Shown: one piece after another, positions 35,736 to 39,795 of the stretch | Numbering within the stretch: the stretch's first letter is position 1 | Layout of the letters: each line of letters begins with the position of its first letter | IMG/VR virus record: IMGVR_UViG_2870495154_000004 | Span: 1 to 51,251 of that record | DNA from: a virus | Lineage: Duplodnaviria; Heunggongvirae; Uroviricota; Caudoviricetes | Length of the DNA stretch: 51,251 nt | Reading direction: 5' to 3' (one strand) | Made by a program: the position numbers and the translations under genes | Notes under the pieces: generated by a model | The model's input: the letters and a program-made list of their open reading frames with translations, nothing else | Databases searched by the model: none | What the model was told of the DNA's origin: nothing

Positions 35736-36788
35736 TTATTTCCCCACCAGCTCGTTTATCTCTTTCACTGTCTGGTTAAACCGCTCTGACTCAAGCTCAA
35801 CACCTAAGGCCCGACGCCCCAGCGCCATTGCTGCTTTTATTGTGGAACCGGATCCCATAAAAAAATCAGCAACCAGATCACCAGGTCGACTACTGGCATT
35901 GATTATTTGCCTGAGCATATCCGCCGGTTTCTCACACGGATGTTTACCCGGGTAGAACTGAACGGGTTTATGCATCCAGACATCGGTATAAGGCACGGAG
36001 ACTGATACGGAGAAATAGCGCCGGAGAGATTTAAACTCATCCAGCAATTCAGAATATTTGCGATTCAGTGAATCATAAGATGCCACCAGCTGGTGGTGTG
36101 GTTGTTCCAGTTGTTGTTCCTGAAACTTCTCTGCCGCTATACGGGAAAACAGTGCCTGTAACTTCCGATAGTCAGCCTCATTCGGCAACTGCCACTGACT
36201 GGCACCAAACCAGTGGGAAACCATATTTTTCTTACCTGTGGCTTCGGCAATTTGTTTTGCCGTTATACCCAGTTCGGCACGAGCATCCCTGAAATACGAT
36301 ATCAGCGGTGCCATTATGTGCTGTTTGAGTTCCCTTTCTTTTGCCGCATAGCCGTCACTTTTGCCGCGATATGGCCCCTGGTAATGTTCAGCAAACAGAA
36401 CGCGCTCTGTGGCAGGAAAATATGCGCGCAGACTTTCTTTATTACATCCATTCCAACGTCCGGACGGCTTCGCCCAGATGATATGGTTAAGCACGTTGAA
36501 ACGTTCACGCATCATGATCTCAATATCAGATGCCAGACGATGCCCACAGAACAGGTAAAGGCTTCCGGCAGGTTTTAACACCCGCCAGAACTGGGCCAGA
36601 CAGTGGTCCAGCCACTTAAGGTAATCTTCGTCCCCTTTCCACTGATTGTCCCAACCGTTGGGTTTCACCTTGAAGTAAGGCGGATCGGTAACAATCAGGT
36701 CAATGGAATCATCAGGCAGGGACTGAATAAAATGCAGGCAATCAGCGTTGATTAAATCAACACTGTTTATTTTTACAGTATTTTTCAT
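35736..36788 (-). CDS. DNA methyltransferase (N6-adenine/N4-cytosine class, DPPY motif)
   Basis: 350 aa; LIVTDPPYF motif near N-terminus and FFMGSGST near C-terminus. Confidence 0.8.
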
Positions 36789-36938
36789 GGATCAGTAAGC
36801 GTAACTCTGGTAGGCTCACTCTGCTTTTGCGCTAAAGCAGTGGGCCGTGGTTCGCTTGTGACCAGTAAGCATGAGCGAATGGCTGGCAGGTGCTACCAAC
36901 ACCCACCAGCCGCCCATTTTCACAGCAGGAAACCGCCA

Positions 36939-37166
36939 TTACTGGCAGCGTCTGAATTTATTCCCATACCCGCCGTTATCCTTCGCCAGACCCGCCAGAA
37001 CTAACTGAGTCAGTATTAACTGGCACCGGGCTTCGCTTACTCCGGTAGTTCTCGTCATCATGCGTGGCGTTACCCACTTGTCAGCAGGTAGGAAATGAAG
37101 GACTACGGCGGCGGTTTCTGTCATATCTTGCTGTTTTAGCATGTCTTTTTCCCTTCTGGTTAACAT
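36939..37166 (-). CDS. FaeA-like small winged-helix regulator
   Basis: 75-aa ORF; AVVLHFL...WVTPRMMTRTTGVSEARCQLILTQLVLAGLA resembles FaeA-like HTH proteins. Confidence 0.4.
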   Translation of the reverse strand: MLTRREKDMLKQQDMTETAAVVLHFLPADKWVTPRMMTRTTGVSEARCQLILTQLVLAGLAKDNGGYGNKFRRCQ

Positions 37167-37264
37167 GACATACCAATAACTCTTGTCTAAAAAGCCAGCA
37201 AGATAAAAAGCCAGTATTCACGACCACCAGCGTGTTTACTGTACTGCACCAGGTTTACAGGTAC

Positions 37265-37289
37265 AAAAAAACCGCTCAACTGCGGTTTT
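37265..37289 (-). terminator. rho-independent terminator (minus-strand orientation)
   Basis: AACCGC-loop-GCGGTT hairpin followed by a T-run on the minus strand. Confidence 0.55.
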
Positions 37290-37355
37290 AAGGAAGGAGT
37301 CGAAGTAACCACTCTTAACATGATACAATTATTTTTGCGGACCGCGTAAGCGTTT

Positions 37356-37389
37356 ATATAGTGTCAACATGCCAAAGATGACACTATAT
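37356..37389. promoter_or_regulatory. palindromic operator-like element in a promoter-rich region upstream of the NYN gene
   Basis: 10-bp inverted arms ATATAGTGTC / GACACTATAT, 14-bp spacer; TTGACA hexamers at 37391 and 37433. Confidence 0.4.
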
Positions 37390-37542
37390 GTTGACAGCAG
37401 AAAAAATTTACATTTAAACAGTGCAAAATTTGTTGACAACGCAAATGTCAATAGTTAATTATTGCGTCACCAGCTCAGCACTGTTCGTAGATAATATTTA
37501 GGGTCTACTCAACGGTTCTGAGCTTTTTTTGTGAGTTTTTCA

Positions 37543-38406
37543 ATGAAGAAAACAGCAGTCTTGATTGACGGCGGCTACTTCATCCGTCGGATTGATTACT
37601 TTCTACGAAAACATTTCCCTGGGCATGAGTTAGACAGCCAACAACTTGTTAAAATAATCTGGCGAATTGTTAAATTTCATGTAGAGGTTCCACATGGTGC
37701 TCACGCTGACCGTGAACCACTTGAGCTTTACCGTATTTACTATTACGACTGCCCGCCGCTTGATAAACAGATTAAGTATCCTTTGCCTGATGGAGACAAC
37801 AAAACCCCATCAACTAAAAACTTCAAGACACATGCTCCGAATGTTTTACGAAACAAGCTTCATGAGGAGCTAAGGAAGAATCGTAAAACGGCACTTCGTA
37901 TGGGTATTCTTTCAAACGTCGGTAACTGGCAAATAAAAGAACATACTCTTAAGAAACTATTACGTAATGAAATTCAATGGTCTGAGTTAACTAACGACGA
38001 TTTCTACTACGAATATAAACAAAAAGCCGTCGATATTAAGCTTGGTATGGATATAACTATCCTTGCTCATGAGAAACTAGTTGATGTGATCGTCCTGATT
38101 GCTGGCGATGCTGATTTCGTTCCTGCCGCTAAACATGCCCGTATAAAGGGTGTGGATTTTATCCTCGATCCAATGAACCAACAAGTTCCTCCCTCACTGG
38201 CAGAGCACGTCGATGGAGTGCAATCGAGCAACATTGTTGTTGCAATTGCTGATATTTGCAGAATCGTCCCAACAGTAAAACCTGATTGGTGGGACGATTA
38301 TATTGACAGACGCAAAGAGAAAAAACTCAATCGTCAAAAGAAAACAAAATCATCTAAGAACGAGCCCAAGAAAAAAACACTTCAATCTGAAACATCCCCG
38401 GCTTAA
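37543..38406 (+). CDS. NYN-domain (PIN-like RNase fold) protein
   Basis: AVLIDGGYF ... DIKLGMDI ... LIAGDADFVPA acidic motifs; lysine-rich tail; AT-rich; opposite strand to flanking phage genes. Confidence 0.6.
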   Translation: MKKTAVLIDGGYFIRRIDYFLRKHFPGHELDSQQLVKIIWRIVKFHVEVPHGAHADREPLELYRIYYYDCPPLDKQIKYPLPDGDNKTPSTKNFKTHAPNVLRNKLHEELRKNRKTALRMGILSNVGNWQIKEHTLKKLLRNEIQWSELTNDDFYYEYKQKAVDIKLGMDITILAHEKLVDVIVLIAGDADFVPAAKHARIKGVDFILDPMNQQVPPSLAEHVDGVQSSNIVVAIADICRIVPTVKPDWWDDYIDRRKEKKLNRQKKTKSSKNEPKKKTLQSETSPA

Positions 38407-38413
38407 GCCGGGG
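38396..38413. terminator. perfect palindrome CCCCGGCTTAAGCCGGGG between convergent NYN and Q (likely bidirectional terminator)
   Basis: 7-bp GC stem, 4-nt loop containing the NYN stop codon; 5 bp from the Q stop. Confidence 0.5.
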
Positions 38414-38418
38414 TTTCA

Positions 38419-38784
38419 CTAATCCATTTCAAGTTTAACATCCAGAATTGAAAGGCATCCATCAATAAACCCCTCAGCCATCTGTATCTCAATGCGTATT
38501 AGTTTCTCATCCTTTCCACGCGCCTTTGCAATCTTACGCTTGGATATTCTGTATAAATAATGTGCCACAAGAAGCGAATGCTCATCAGGTCTTTTTTGCT
38601 TTAGACGTGCAAGACAACCTTCAATAATTAATGCATCACTATCTGAACAAGCCTGACGTGTTTTGCTTGTATAGGGAAGAAGCCCTTTAAACCCAGCAGC
38701 TATAGGAGAATAATCTACTCCTGAACTATCACTCGCCGCCCATGCTCCCCAACGATCCAGAACCATCTGAATATCACGCATCAC
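38419..38784 (-). CDS. Q: late antiterminator Q (phage 82 type)
   Basis: MRDIQMVLDRWGAWAA...IAAGFKGLL...EGCLARLK...LIRIEIQMAEGFIDGCLSILDVKLEMD matches Q82 family. Confidence 0.85.
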   Translation of the reverse strand: MMRDIQMVLDRWGAWAASDSSGVDYSPIAAGFKGLLPYTSKTRQACSDSDALIIEGCLARLKQKRPDEHSLLVAHYLYRISKRKIAKARGKDEKLIRIEIQMAEGFIDGCLSILDVKLEMD

Positions 38785-38799: not shown

Positions 38800-39795
38800 T
38801 CAGGCCAGCACGCCAATTGCCAGCGCGCGATCGATAAAACGAAATATCAGCTCCAGCTGGGAGCCATACTTTTCTTCAAATGCCACGGTATCCGCATGCA
38901 GCTCGTCGTGATGCTTTCTGCACAAAGGCAACACAAAAAGGTCATGCGCTTTTGTTCCCATTCCACCCTGACCGTAACCTATCAGGTGGTGGGGATCATC
39001 AGCGGGCTTTCCACAACATGCACACGGCTGTGTCTTAACCCAGCGCGTGTACTTTTCATTAACCCAGCGGCGACGTTTTGGGCGTAACATAAAAGACTCC
39101 GGCGACTCCGGATCCACTTTCAGCGCCAGCACCTTTTTCGCCTTATCCTGGATGATGCTGGTGGCAGGAACCGAAGGCACAAGGTCACTTTCCCGGGTGA
39201 CAGACGGCACAACAGGCTTCGGTAATCTAAGTGCCTTACGGGCTGCACTTTCCGGTAAGGCATCCGCCAGGTCATTACGAATCAGCCACCAGCACAGTTC
39301 CGGCATTGTCACAACGTGACTGTCATCAAAACCGAGATCCCGACGCACAACAGACAACACCCAGCGGGCACAGTTATCCGTTGCCATTGATTCCAGCCGT
39401 TCCGTGAACTGATCGCGCAGCTGGTTATCGCAGTGCCAGCACAGACGGATTGCGCCCGGAGCGTGTCGCATTGTGGTCATGTTCTCGCTGTGCCAGTCGG
39501 AATGAGGCCACTGGCAGCCTTTTTCACGAAGTAACCAGCTTTCAAGACATTCCACGCCACCAGCACGACGGATCACTGCCTCATTGCGGAACACGGCCCG
39601 AACGGCAGGATCATCCGCCAGCGGTTGTGATGCCGCCGGAACGGCACCACTGGCGAAAGATGAATAACGTTCCGGCTCAGGCTCCAGCAGGACACGCCCC
39701 TGCATAAACAGGGGCATCAGCTCTGAACCTGGCCTGAACAATACGATCCCCATACGCGGGGCAATTTCAGGAGTCAGTAGTGCTCTCACGGTCAC
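38800..39795 (-). CDS. DUF968-family protein (YdfU-like) with C-terminal Cys/His HNH-like motif
   Basis: 331 aa; CACCGKPADDPHHL...CRKHHDELH; typical neighbour of Q. Confidence 0.6.
   Translation of the reverse strand: MTVRALLTPEIAPRMGIVLFRPGSELMPLFMQGRVLLEPEPERYSSFASGAVPAASQPLADDPAVRAVFRNEAVIRRAGGVECLESWLLREKGCQWPHSDWHSENMTTMRHAPGAIRLCWHCDNQLRDQFTERLESMATDNCARWVLSVVRRDLGFDDSHVVTMPELCWWLIRNDLADALPESAARKALRLPKPVVPSVTRESDLVPSVPATSIIQDKAKKVLALKVDPESPESFMLRPKRRRWVNEKYTRWVKTQPCACCGKPADDPHHLIGYGQGGMGTKAHDLFVLPLCRKHHDELHADTVAFEEKYGSQLELIFRFIDRALAIGVLA

What the first reader, a model, noticed from the sequence alone, without database searches (positions are those of the whole stretch)
37543..38406. 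NYN-domain gene inserted antisense immediately downstream of antiterminator Q
In lambdoid phages the interval after Q holds the late promoter and leader and is where Stx toxins and other morons insert. Here it holds a plus-strand NYN (PIN-like RNase) gene convergent with Q. Any late transcript initiating next to Q would be antisense to it, implying expression mainly in the lysogen. It is AT-rich with a lysine-rich tail and no partner gene.
Basis: partly seen in the sequence, partly recalled or inferred. Interest (0 to 1): 0.6.

Follow-up and report, generated by a model that had tools for sequence, protein, structure and literature searches.

The report
Prophage NYN RNase with leader hairpin
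A real NYN-type ribonuclease gene sits between the Q antiterminator and the late promoter of an E. coli lambda-like prophage, and it always travels with its own promoter and a conserved hairpin RNA, which makes it a candidate lysogen-expressed exclusion or toxin module that nobody has tested.

Summary

- **Late promoter.** Comparison with cdtI, PhiR40_1, other E. coli prophages and DLP12 places the late promoter/qut/terminator block at 37265-37347 on the minus strand. That is on the far side of the NYN cassette and points away from it. Late transcripts are therefore not antisense to the gene. Only read-through from pR across Q would be.
- **Partner.** The gene has no protein partner, but it is never alone. 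A sigma-70-like promoter is followed by a 62-nt leader hairpin with a U7 tail (37469-37530). This element precedes every homologue of at least 49% identity examined (49 further loci). It shows 12 of 18 compensatory base pairs and invariant loop bases, and matches no Rfam family.
- **Location.** The promoter-hairpin-NYN cassette recurs in temperate phages (418 IMG/VR contigs) in three places: just after cI (the lambda rexAB slot), between Q and pR', and beside int.

Most likely it is a lysogen-expressed RNase moron held in check by the leader RNA, acting in exclusion or addiction. That function is inferred. Two other NYN defence candidates tested elsewhere were negative.

The parts
37348..38418 (.). 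Mobile cargo cassette: regulatory region, leader RNA, NYN ORF and 3' hairpin, inserted between the Q stop codon and the late-promoter block
   Evidence: Phage cdtI has the same Q type. Its homology to the window runs 36500-37346 and resumes at 38419. Other E. coli prophages break at window 37320, 37347-37349 or 37360. GC is 0.39-0.41 here against about 0.5 in the flanks.
37356..37389 (.). 11-bp inverted repeat ATATAGTGTCA-N12-TGACACTATAT lying between the two divergent promoters; function unknown
   Evidence: Read directly from the sequence. The ATATAGT/ACTATAT arms are retained in the Edwardsiella copy of the cassette.
37433..37462 (+). Sigma-70-like promoter of the cassette, TTGACA-18-AATTAT. 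The -35 is part of the palindrome TTGACA-N7-TGTCAA (37433-37451).
   Evidence: The promoter scan scores it 10/12. Equivalent hexamers stand at the same distance from the hairpin in Edwardsiella, ev099 and other loci. The block of invariant sequence begins at 37469, where a start site is expected.
37469..37530 (+). 62-nt 5' leader: a long interrupted hairpin (18 bp, 12-nt loop) followed by U7. It is an intrinsic-terminator-like element and a candidate small RNA.
   Evidence: MFE is -22.4 kcal/mol with z=-3.7. The sequence is almost identical (one loop base differs) between the window and Edwardsiella, although the proteins are 86% identical. Across 28 sequences, 94.4% of cells pair against 25-44% in slid controls, and 12 of 18 pairs show compensatory changes. 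Covariance model R1 gives 78.2 bits, E=6e-21, and this is the only strong hit in the window. No Rfam family matches.
37543..38406 (+). NYN-domain (PIN-like) nuclease gene, 287 aa
38396..38413 (.). Palindromic hairpin CCCCGGC-TTAA-GCCGGGG spanning the NYN stop codon, between the convergent NYN and Q genes. The T-runs are weak on both strands.
   Evidence: Read from the sequence. It lies inside the cassette, because homology to cdtI resumes only at 38419.
38419..38784 (-). Antiterminator Q, 121 aa, QuuD-like. It is 50% identical to DLP12 QuuD and only distantly related to Q21.
   Evidence: Pfam PF06530 E=8.9e-52. BLASTP to QuuD gives E=8e-41. The match to the PDB Q21 chain is E=0.0065.
37265..37347 (-). 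Inferred late-promoter block pR'/qut/tR'. It holds the conserved ACGCGGTCCGC (37347-37337), the -10-like TATCAT (37325-37320), the conserved initial transcribed block GTTAAGAGTGGTTACTTCG (37319-37301), and the terminator hairpin with T7 (37289-37265).
   Evidence: Phages with the small Q share this block, whereas phages with the 250-aa Q share only the terminator onwards. Six different cargo contexts keep a TAnnnT hexamer in register directly before GTTAAGAGTGG. In DLP12 the exact motif lies between nmpC and essD, preceded by TTTACG-16-TATGCT.

Best explanation
The finding is one gene of a self-contained moron cassette of about 1.07 kb. The cassette runs, in order: its own sigma-70 promoter, a 62-nt leader that folds into a long hairpin with a U-tract, a 287-aa NYN (MARF1/LabA-type, PIN-like) metal-dependent nuclease that is most probably an endoribonuclease, and a 3' hairpin.

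In this thrW-integrated lambdoid prophage the cassette sits between the stop codon of a QuuD-like Q gene and the late promoter block. It is transcribed divergently from pR'. It is therefore outside the late operon, and is opposed only by pR read-through across Q.

The same promoter-hairpin-NYN unit occupies the classic lysogen-expressed slots of other temperate phages: directly after cI (the rexAB position), between Q and pR', and next to int.

Proposed working:
1. In the lysogen the promoter fires constitutively.
2. Most transcripts stop at the leader terminator, giving a short hairpin RNA.
3. A minority read through and make a small amount of RNase.
4. The RNase is kept harmless by low dosage and/or by binding its own leader hairpin.
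5. On superinfection or another stress it cleaves RNA, excluding the incoming phage or killing the cell.

What is shown: the fold, the conserved acidic residues, the cassette boundaries, the structure and strict linkage of the RNA element, and the prophage slots. What is inferred: RNase activity, expression in the lysogen, the function of the hairpin, and the exclusion phenotype.

For: **Cassette and presence/absence polymorphism.**. The full gene is in only 26 of 5426 complete E. coli genomes, while the flanks are in about 1250 (1245 and 1417 genomes in the two searches).

**Cargo hotspot.** The same slot holds other plus-strand cargo in cdtI, PhiR40_1/W150, GF54 and AH19K002, and holds nmpC in DLP12.

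**pR' on the far side.**

**Leader RNA.**. There is one hit of 61-87 bits directly 5' of NYN in all 49 further loci with at least 49% aa identity, and none in the six loci searched that lack NYN.

**Slots.**
- Edwardsiella copy (86% identical) lies between a lambda-type Q and the holin, in the same orientation.
- In 59 viral loci, 30 have a Peptidase_S24/HTH repressor immediately 5' and co-oriented.
- Annotated phages ev099 and Brookers show cII-cro | cI-NYN-N.
- Brenneria has the rex slot. Halomonas and P. syringae have the gene beside int at the prophage end.
- Downstream neighbours include Q, N and integrases.

**Precedent.** A single-protein PIN RNase without an antitoxin defends E. coli: DS-3 in PMC13092281.

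**From established knowledge.** The lambda rexAB slot, and genes oriented against lytic transcription such as bor and lc/nmpC, are expressed in lysogens.
Against: - There are no expression data, toxicity data or phage-challenge data for this family. I found no paper on it.
- Matches to known defence models are weak and at domain level only: PADLOC E about 5e-4 over 47 residues.
- Two other NYN-domain defence candidates gave no protection against the coliphage panels used: HEC-09 (bioRxiv 10.1101/2024.01.29.577857) and 'NYND' WP_001399740.1 (PMC13092281 supplement).
- The alternative cargos in the Q-pR' slot match no known defence system.
- The hairpin plus U-tract could be just a leaky terminator that limits expression.
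- PIN-like folds also include DNA flap nucleases, so an RNA substrate is not proven.
- One Pseudomonas copy lies in a region with no obvious prophage genes.
Confidence: 0.55

Rival explanations
1. RNA-antitoxin (type III-like) toxin-antitoxin or abortive-infection module. The 62-nt hairpin RNA made from the cassette promoter and ended by its own terminator is the antitoxin. It binds and inhibits the NYN RNase made from rare read-through transcripts. When transcription is shut off by infection or loss of the prophage, the RNA decays and the RNase is freed.
For: - The architecture promoter, structured RNA, terminator, RNase ORF is that of toxIN-type loci (established knowledge).
- The hairpin starts about 3 nt after the predicted start site, which leaves no room for an alternative anti-terminator fold.
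- The RNA sequence is more conserved than the protein: one base differs in 62, against 86% aa identity.
- Loop bases are invariant while the stems covary.
- Linkage to NYN is strict, in all 49 further loci checked.
- No conserved protein partner exists, because the neighbours differ: cI, Q or int.
Against: - There are no tandem repeats, which are the hallmark of known type III antitoxins.
- The toxin fold is NYN and not ToxN/AbiQ.
- There is no evidence of RNA-protein binding or of toxicity.
- Loop conservation fades in the homologues at about 40% identity, which keep only a hairpin plus U-run and are not matched by the model.
Confidence: 0.25
2. A phage housekeeping or regulatory RNase. The NYN protein processes or degrades the phage's own transcripts, for example leaky early, Q or late RNA, to stabilise lysogeny or time development. 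The leader hairpin would be a negative autoregulatory substrate, as with Regnase-1 cleaving a stem-loop in its own mRNA.
For: - The gene sits next to the master regulators cI or Q.
- From established knowledge, NYN/PIN-like RNases such as Regnase-1 recognise stem-loops, including one in their own mRNA.
- The loop of the leader hairpin is conserved.
Against: - The gene is dispensable and sporadic. Closely related phages with the same Q, cI and lysis modules lack it or carry unrelated cargo in the slot.
- It also occurs beside int and in non-prophage Pseudomonas DNA.
- Covariance model R1 finds no second copy of the hairpin in the window that could serve as a target.
Confidence: 0.12
3. One reading: the gene lies inside the late leader next to Q, so Q-dependent late transcripts run antisense through it and silence it during lytic growth.
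For: The gene is convergent with Q and only 12 bp from it. N-antiterminated transcripts from pR that read through Q would indeed be antisense to it (inference).
Against: The Q-type-specific promoter, qut and terminator block lies at 37265-37347 on the other side of the cassette and faces away. The sequence immediately after the Q stop is not conserved among phages with the same Q. In DLP12 the same motif follows the convergent nmpC gene.
Confidence: 0.05

Closest known systems
NYN domain nucleases (Pfam PF01936): MARF1 NYN domain (PDB 5yaa) and LabA-like VPA0982 (PDB 2qip)
   Different: Sequence identity is only about 15%, and neither the single sequence nor the family profile matches any solved structure by sequence. 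The family has its own insertions: the Pfam match covers only residues 105-208, and there are extra helices at 32-48 and strands at 76-93 and 122-131. It also has a conserved PxxWW motif and a variable charged tail. It is prophage-borne and carries a dedicated leader RNA.
nmpC/lc porin moron of DLP12 and related lambdoid prophages
   Same: It occupies the same slot in the same orientation. It lies between a QuuD-type Q gene and the GTTAAGAGTGG late-promoter block, convergent with Q and upstream of the lysis genes.
   Different: The product is unrelated (an outer-membrane porin against a cytoplasmic nuclease). No R1 hairpin is present in that locus.
Lambda rexAB and other exclusion genes placed directly after the prophage repressor
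   Same: About half of the viral homologues sit in exactly that position, cI followed by NYN and then pL/N, and are co-oriented with cI.
   Different: The proteins are unrelated. The NYN unit brings its own promoter and a terminator-like leader, so it is not simply co-transcribed with cI. In the window itself the gene is in the Q slot and not the rex slot. An exclusion phenotype has not been tested.
Type III toxin-antitoxin / abortive-infection loci (ToxIN, CptIN, TenpIN)
   Same: The order of parts matches: promoter, structured non-coding RNA, intrinsic terminator, endoribonuclease gene. There is no protein antitoxin.
   Different: The RNA is a single hairpin and not a tandem repeat array. 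The nuclease fold is NYN and not ToxN-like. No functional data exist.
DS-3, a single-protein split-PIN RNase defence system of E. coli (DefensePredictor, PMC13092281)
   Same: It is a stand-alone PIN-superfamily RNase with no cognate antitoxin, found in the accessory genome of E. coli. Its catalytic residues are required for defence.
   Different: The sequence is unrelated (WP_022645725.1, 340 aa, VapC-like PIN). A leader RNA is not described for it.

Membership tests
NYN domain / PIN-like nuclease superfamily | Profile match above the curated threshold | tested here: met
   PF01936 scores 39.1 bits against a cut-off of 24.2, E=1.4e-9, over residues 105-208.
NYN domain / PIN-like nuclease superfamily | Three-layer alpha/beta PIN-like fold superposable on solved NYN domains | tested here: met
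   [not shown]
NYN domain / PIN-like nuclease superfamily | Conserved acidic metal-binding residues | tested here: met
   D9, D164, D170, D189 and D191 (plus D69, D205, D224) are invariant in 31 homologues down to 41% identity. Their mapping onto the MARF1 catalytic Asp residues is inferred from motif position and was not superposed residue by residue.
NYN domain / PIN-like nuclease superfamily | Metal-dependent ribonuclease activity | not testable with these tools
   This needs purified protein. FEN-type DNA nucleases are the next-best structural matches.
Lambdoid moron (autonomous accessory cassette) | Present or absent between otherwise homologous phages, with sharp boundaries and deviant base composition | tested here: met
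   Boundaries at 37347 and 38419 relative to cdtI. Full gene in 26 of 5426 genomes, flanks in 1245. GC 0.39-0.41.
Lambdoid moron (autonomous accessory cassette) | Own promoter and terminator, independent of phage operons | tested here: inconclusive
   There is a promoter-like site scoring 10/12, conserved in position across loci, and hairpins at both ends. No transcript mapping is available.
Lambdoid moron (autonomous accessory cassette) | Expression from the repressed prophage | not testable with these tools
   Inferred only from slot and orientation.
Late-operon morons of the stx type (inserted downstream of pR'/tR' on the late strand) | Located downstream of the late promoter and co-oriented with late genes | tested here: not met
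   The gene is on the opposite strand and upstream of the inferred pR' block.
Type III toxin-antitoxin | Non-coding RNA gene and terminator immediately upstream of an endoribonuclease toxin gene, under one promoter | tested here: met
   Promoter 37433-37462, hairpin plus U7 at 37469-37530, ORF from 37543.
Type III toxin-antitoxin | Antitoxin RNA made of tandem direct repeats processed by the toxin | tested here: not met
   Tandem Repeats Finder reports no repeats in 37200-38500. The element is a single hairpin.
Type III toxin-antitoxin | Toxin of the ToxN/AbiQ fold | tested here: not met
   The fold is NYN.
Type III toxin-antitoxin | Toxicity neutralised by the RNA | not testable with these tools
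   Needs expression experiments.
Type II VapBC-like TA (PIN toxin plus protein antitoxin) | Conserved small antitoxin gene adjacent to and co-transcribed with the toxin | tested here: not met
   Immediate neighbours differ between loci (cI, Q, int, N), and the 5' gap holds only the RNA element.
Catalogued anti-phage defence systems (PADLOC-DB v2) | Significant full-length match to a defence-system model | tested here: not met
   Only HEC-09 and 'NYN' models match, at E about 5e-4 over about 47 residues. HEC-09 itself showed no defence.

The most novel reading that the evidence does not exclude
The 62-nt leader hairpin is a trans-acting RNA antitoxin or specific ligand of the NYN RNase. On this reading the promoter-hairpin-NYN unit is a new class of RNA-controlled toxin or abortive-infection module: type III-like, but with a non-repetitive RNA and an NYN toxin. 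It would be spread through hundreds of temperate phages of Gammaproteobacteria in the slots reserved for lysogen-expressed exclusion genes.
Probability: 0.22. Interest if true: 0.8.

Novelty: new variant of a known kind. Interest (0 to 1): 0.58.

Why it matters
Genes that temperate phages place after cI, between Q and pR', or beside int are the classic sources of superinfection exclusion and lysogenic conversion. This one is common (418 viral contigs and more than 3000 proteins), is annotated only as 'NYN domain-containing protein', and has no known function. If it is an exclusion RNase it adds an NYN-based single-gene system to prophage immunity. If the linked hairpin RNA is its inhibitor, it would extend RNA-antitoxin systems beyond the ToxN family. 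The comparison also locates the probable late promoter/qut block for QuuD-type Q proteins, and shows that the Q-pR' junction is a cargo hotspot. That is useful when annotating E. coli prophages, including relatives of Stx phages.

Tried and rejected
- **Sequence search against solved structures.** Neither the single protein nor the family profile gave a meaningful hit. Only fold comparison worked.
- **Foldseek against afdb50.** The library was not available.
- **Rfam scan of 37150-38500.** Only two sub-threshold chance hits.
- **PADLOC.** Only weak domain-level hits for the NYN protein, and nothing for the alternative cargos in the slot.
- **Literature.** No paper on NYN genes in lambdoid phages. 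'NYN' in PMC12704755 refers to a codon scheme and is irrelevant.
- **Is this protein DS-3 of DefensePredictor ('split PIN')?** No. DS-3 is WP_022645725.1, an unrelated sequence.
- **Transferring the phage 21 QBE.** Rejected, because the window's Q matches Q21 only at E=0.0065. pR' was located by comparison instead.
- **tRNA genes between Q and the lysis genes, as in Stx phages.** None found.
- **Tandem repeats upstream of NYN.** None found.
- **Other copies of the hairpin in the window as possible targets.** None. The next hits are generic terminators at 22 bits or less.

Full report
**1. Observation**

The window is a complete lambdoid prophage integrated at tRNA-Thr next to proA. It is identical to a prophage of E. 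coli CREC-532.

The ORF at 37543-38406 (+) encodes 287 aa.
- It passes the Pfam NYN gathering threshold: 39.1 bits against 24.2, E=1.4e-9. It matches PHROG 5783, of unknown function, at E=7.6e-109.
- RefSeq calls it 'NYN domain-containing protein'.
- An AlphaFold2 model built on 31 homologues has mean pLDDT 90.8.
- No solved structure matches by sequence.
- In an alignment of 31 homologues down to 41% identity, D9, D69, D164, D170, D189, D191, D205 and D224 are invariant, along with several Arg, Lys and His residues. The aspartates lie in the NYN motifs DGG, VDxKLGxD and GDxDF.

The downstream gene on the minus strand (38419-38784) is a Q antiterminator (PF06530, E=8.9e-52). It is 50% identical to DLP12 QuuD and only distantly related to Q21. 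The two stop codons are 12 bp apart. GC is 0.39-0.41 over the insert against about 0.5 around it.

**2. Where the gene sits relative to the late promoter**

Phage cdtI has the same Q type. Its homology to the window runs 36500-37346 and resumes exactly at the Q stop, 38419. In between, cdtI carries two unrelated plus-strand genes.

Other prophages with a Q of this family carry yet other plus-strand cargo in the same place:
- a 148-aa gene in PhiR40_1 and W150;
- a 339-aa gene in GF54;
- a 308-aa plus 182-aa pair in AH19K002.

None of these matches a known defence model.

The sequence shared by all phages with a Q of this family begins with a TAnnnT hexamer in fixed register, followed by GTTAAGAGTGGTTACTTCG and a hairpin with a T-run. 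Most also share ACGCGGTCCGC about 11 bp upstream of the hexamer. Phages with the unrelated 250-aa Q (Ayreon, 720R4, SfV) share only the terminator and what follows it.

In E. coli K-12 DLP12, quuD is followed by the convergent porin gene nmpC. The exact GTTAAGAGTGGT motif, preceded by TTTACG-16-TATGCT, lies after nmpC, about 170 bp upstream of essD.

I therefore place pR'/qut/tR' at window 37265-37347 on the minus strand. The NYN cassette (37348-38418) lies between Q and pR' and is divergent from pR'. Late transcripts do not cross it. Only pR read-through beyond Q would be antisense to it. This is unlike stx-type morons, which lie downstream of pR'. The placement rests on comparison alone; no start site has been mapped.

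**3. The gene is not alone: a conserved leader RNA**

The NYN upstream regions of the window and of an Edwardsiella prophage were aligned. The proteins are 86% identical and the Edwardsiella Q is of a different, lambda-type family. From the predicted start site to a T7 run there is a 62-nt block that differs at a single loop base. It is preceded by a TTGACA-17/18-TAAATT/AATTAT promoter.

The block folds into an 18-bp interrupted hairpin with a 12-nt loop and a U7 tail (MFE -22.4 kcal/mol, z=-3.7). The same element with different stem sequences precedes:
- the paralogues at 59% identity that follow cI, for example phage ev099;
- Pseudomonas chromosomal copies;
- Halomonas copies.

On a gap-free alignment of 28 distinct leaders, 94.4% of cells pair, against 25-44% when partners are slid by one to three columns. 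Twelve of 18 pairs carry changes on both sides, and the covariation score is 0.423 against 0.13 or less in the controls. Several loop bases are invariant.

A covariance model (R1) finds exactly one strong hit (61-87 bits) per locus. The hit is always within a few tens of bases 5' of the NYN start and on the same strand. This holds in the window and in all 49 further loci whose protein is at least 49% identical. The six related loci searched that lack NYN have no hit.

Homologues at about 40% identity keep a hairpin plus U-run by eye, but the model does not match them. Rfam has no such family. No tandem repeats are present. Because the stem begins about 3 nt after the predicted start site, there is no room for a competing anti-terminator fold. 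The element therefore looks like a constitutive, leaky terminator that would also release a short hairpin RNA.

**4. Distribution and context**

The protein family has 3236 members at E<=1e-3, mostly in Gammaproteobacteria. It is encoded on 418 IMG/VR viral contigs.

Among 59 partly de-duplicated viral loci, the gene immediately 5' and co-oriented is an HTH plus Peptidase_S24 repressor in 30. The annotated phages Escherichia ev099 and Proteus Brookers show cII-cro | cI-NYN-N. That is the lambda rexAB position. Brenneria prophages show the same arrangement.

The window group and the Edwardsiella copies occupy the Q slot. Halomonas and P. syringae copies lie beside the integrase at the prophage end. 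Downstream neighbours include Q, N and integrases. One Pseudomonas copy lies in non-prophage DNA near a RES-Xre toxin-antitoxin pair.

In complete E. coli genomes, the Q-slot gene is present in 26 of 5426 and the rex-slot paralogue is full length in 74. About 200 further genomes hold only part of it. In the one O157:H7 example I inspected it is cut off by IS1203 in a decayed prophage at thrW.

**5. Mechanism**

*Shown:* an NYN fold with intact acidic residues; an autonomous cassette with promoter-like and terminator-like elements; a covarying RNA element that is strictly linked to the gene; and repeated placement in slots where temperate phages keep lysogen-expressed genes.

*Inferred:* the cassette is transcribed in the lysogen; most transcripts end at the leader, so little RNase is made; and the RNase acts on RNA during superinfection or stress, as an exclusion, abortive-infection or addiction function. 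I give this composite 0.55.

Within it, the sharper idea that the hairpin RNA is an antitoxin-like ligand gets 0.22-0.25. In its favour are the architecture, an RNA that is more conserved than the protein, and the invariant loop. Against it are the absence of repeats, the non-ToxN fold and the lack of any functional data.

A role in the phage's own RNA metabolism gets about 0.12, because the gene is sporadic among otherwise identical phages.

**6. Comparison with what is known, and caveats**

PIN-superfamily RNases without an antitoxin can defend E. coli, as shown for DS-3 in PMC13092281. DS-3 is unrelated in sequence.

Two other NYN candidates, which share at most domain-level similarity with this one, gave no protection in the panels used. 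HEC-09 gives only a weak partial match and showed no defence. 'NYND' WP_001399740.1 was not compared directly, and it was also negative. Both were tested mainly against lytic coliphages. I found no study of this family.

The slot itself is known, through nmpC/lc. What is new here is the link between an NYN nuclease and a dedicated structured leader RNA, its three-slot distribution, and the placement of the cassette upstream of pR'.

**7. Verdict**

The gene is real and correctly identified. The regulatory reading needs correction, and the gene has an overlooked RNA companion. I class it as a new variant of a known kind, a prophage moron or RNase module, with moderate-to-good interest (0.58). 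Interest would rise to about 0.8 if the RNA-antitoxin reading proves right.

Noticed in passing
window 37348-38418; L001 2147-3633; L088 1426-2044; L090 1163-2182; L091 3508-4969; L096 4030-6326: The junction between QuuD-type Q genes and the late-promoter block is a cargo hotspot. At least six different inserts occupy it, all transcribed convergently with Q: NYN; a DUF6731 protein plus a 147-aa partner in cdtI; a 148-aa protein; a 339-aa protein; a 308-aa plus 182-aa pair; and nmpC in DLP12. None of the unknowns matches a PADLOC model.
   Followed up: partly
window 37301-37347 (- strand): This is a candidate qut site for QuuD-type Q proteins. ACGCGGTCCGC lies between the -35 and -10 positions and is present in 5 of 7 contexts. 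GTTAAGAGTGGTTACTTCG lies directly after the -10 and is identical or nearly so in every context with a Q of this family, including DLP12. It has not been mapped experimentally as far as I could find.
   Followed up: partly
window 37433-37451 and equivalent positions in other NYN loci: The -35 hexamer of the NYN promoter is half of a palindrome (TTGACA-N7-TGTCAA). The palindrome persists in other loci with changed sequence (GTTGAC-N6-GTCAAC, TGACGG-N2-CCGTCA). It could be an operator or a small hairpin. This is unexplained.
   Followed up: no
window 37356-37389: An 11-bp inverted repeat, ATATAGTGTCA-N12-TGACACTATAT, lies between the divergent pR' and NYN promoters. Its arms are partly conserved in the Edwardsiella cassette.
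   Followed up: no
[not shown]
   Followed up: partly
window 35736-37166 (- strand): An orphan N6/N4 DNA methyltransferase (350 aa) and a 75-aa PHROG 331 gene lie in the late leader between tR' and the holin. This arrangement is conserved in many E. coli prophages and phages (cdtI, mEp460, Ayreon, SfV).
   Followed up: no
window 38800-39795 (- strand): The gene upstream of Q is a DUF968/HNH-like protein (YdfU family). It takes the place of NinG in this phage group.
   Followed up: no
L004 13161-13677: The Edwardsiella prophage that carries the 86%-identical NYN cassette also carries a BrnT/BrnA toxin-antitoxin pair, inserted on the opposite strand within its early region.
   Followed up: no
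phage collection hits H113-H145 (LC616031-LC616078): Forty-eight Stx2a-converting phage records encode the rex-slot NYN paralogue at 59% identity, so the family is common in one Stx2a phage lineage. These records carry no annotation.
   Followed up: no
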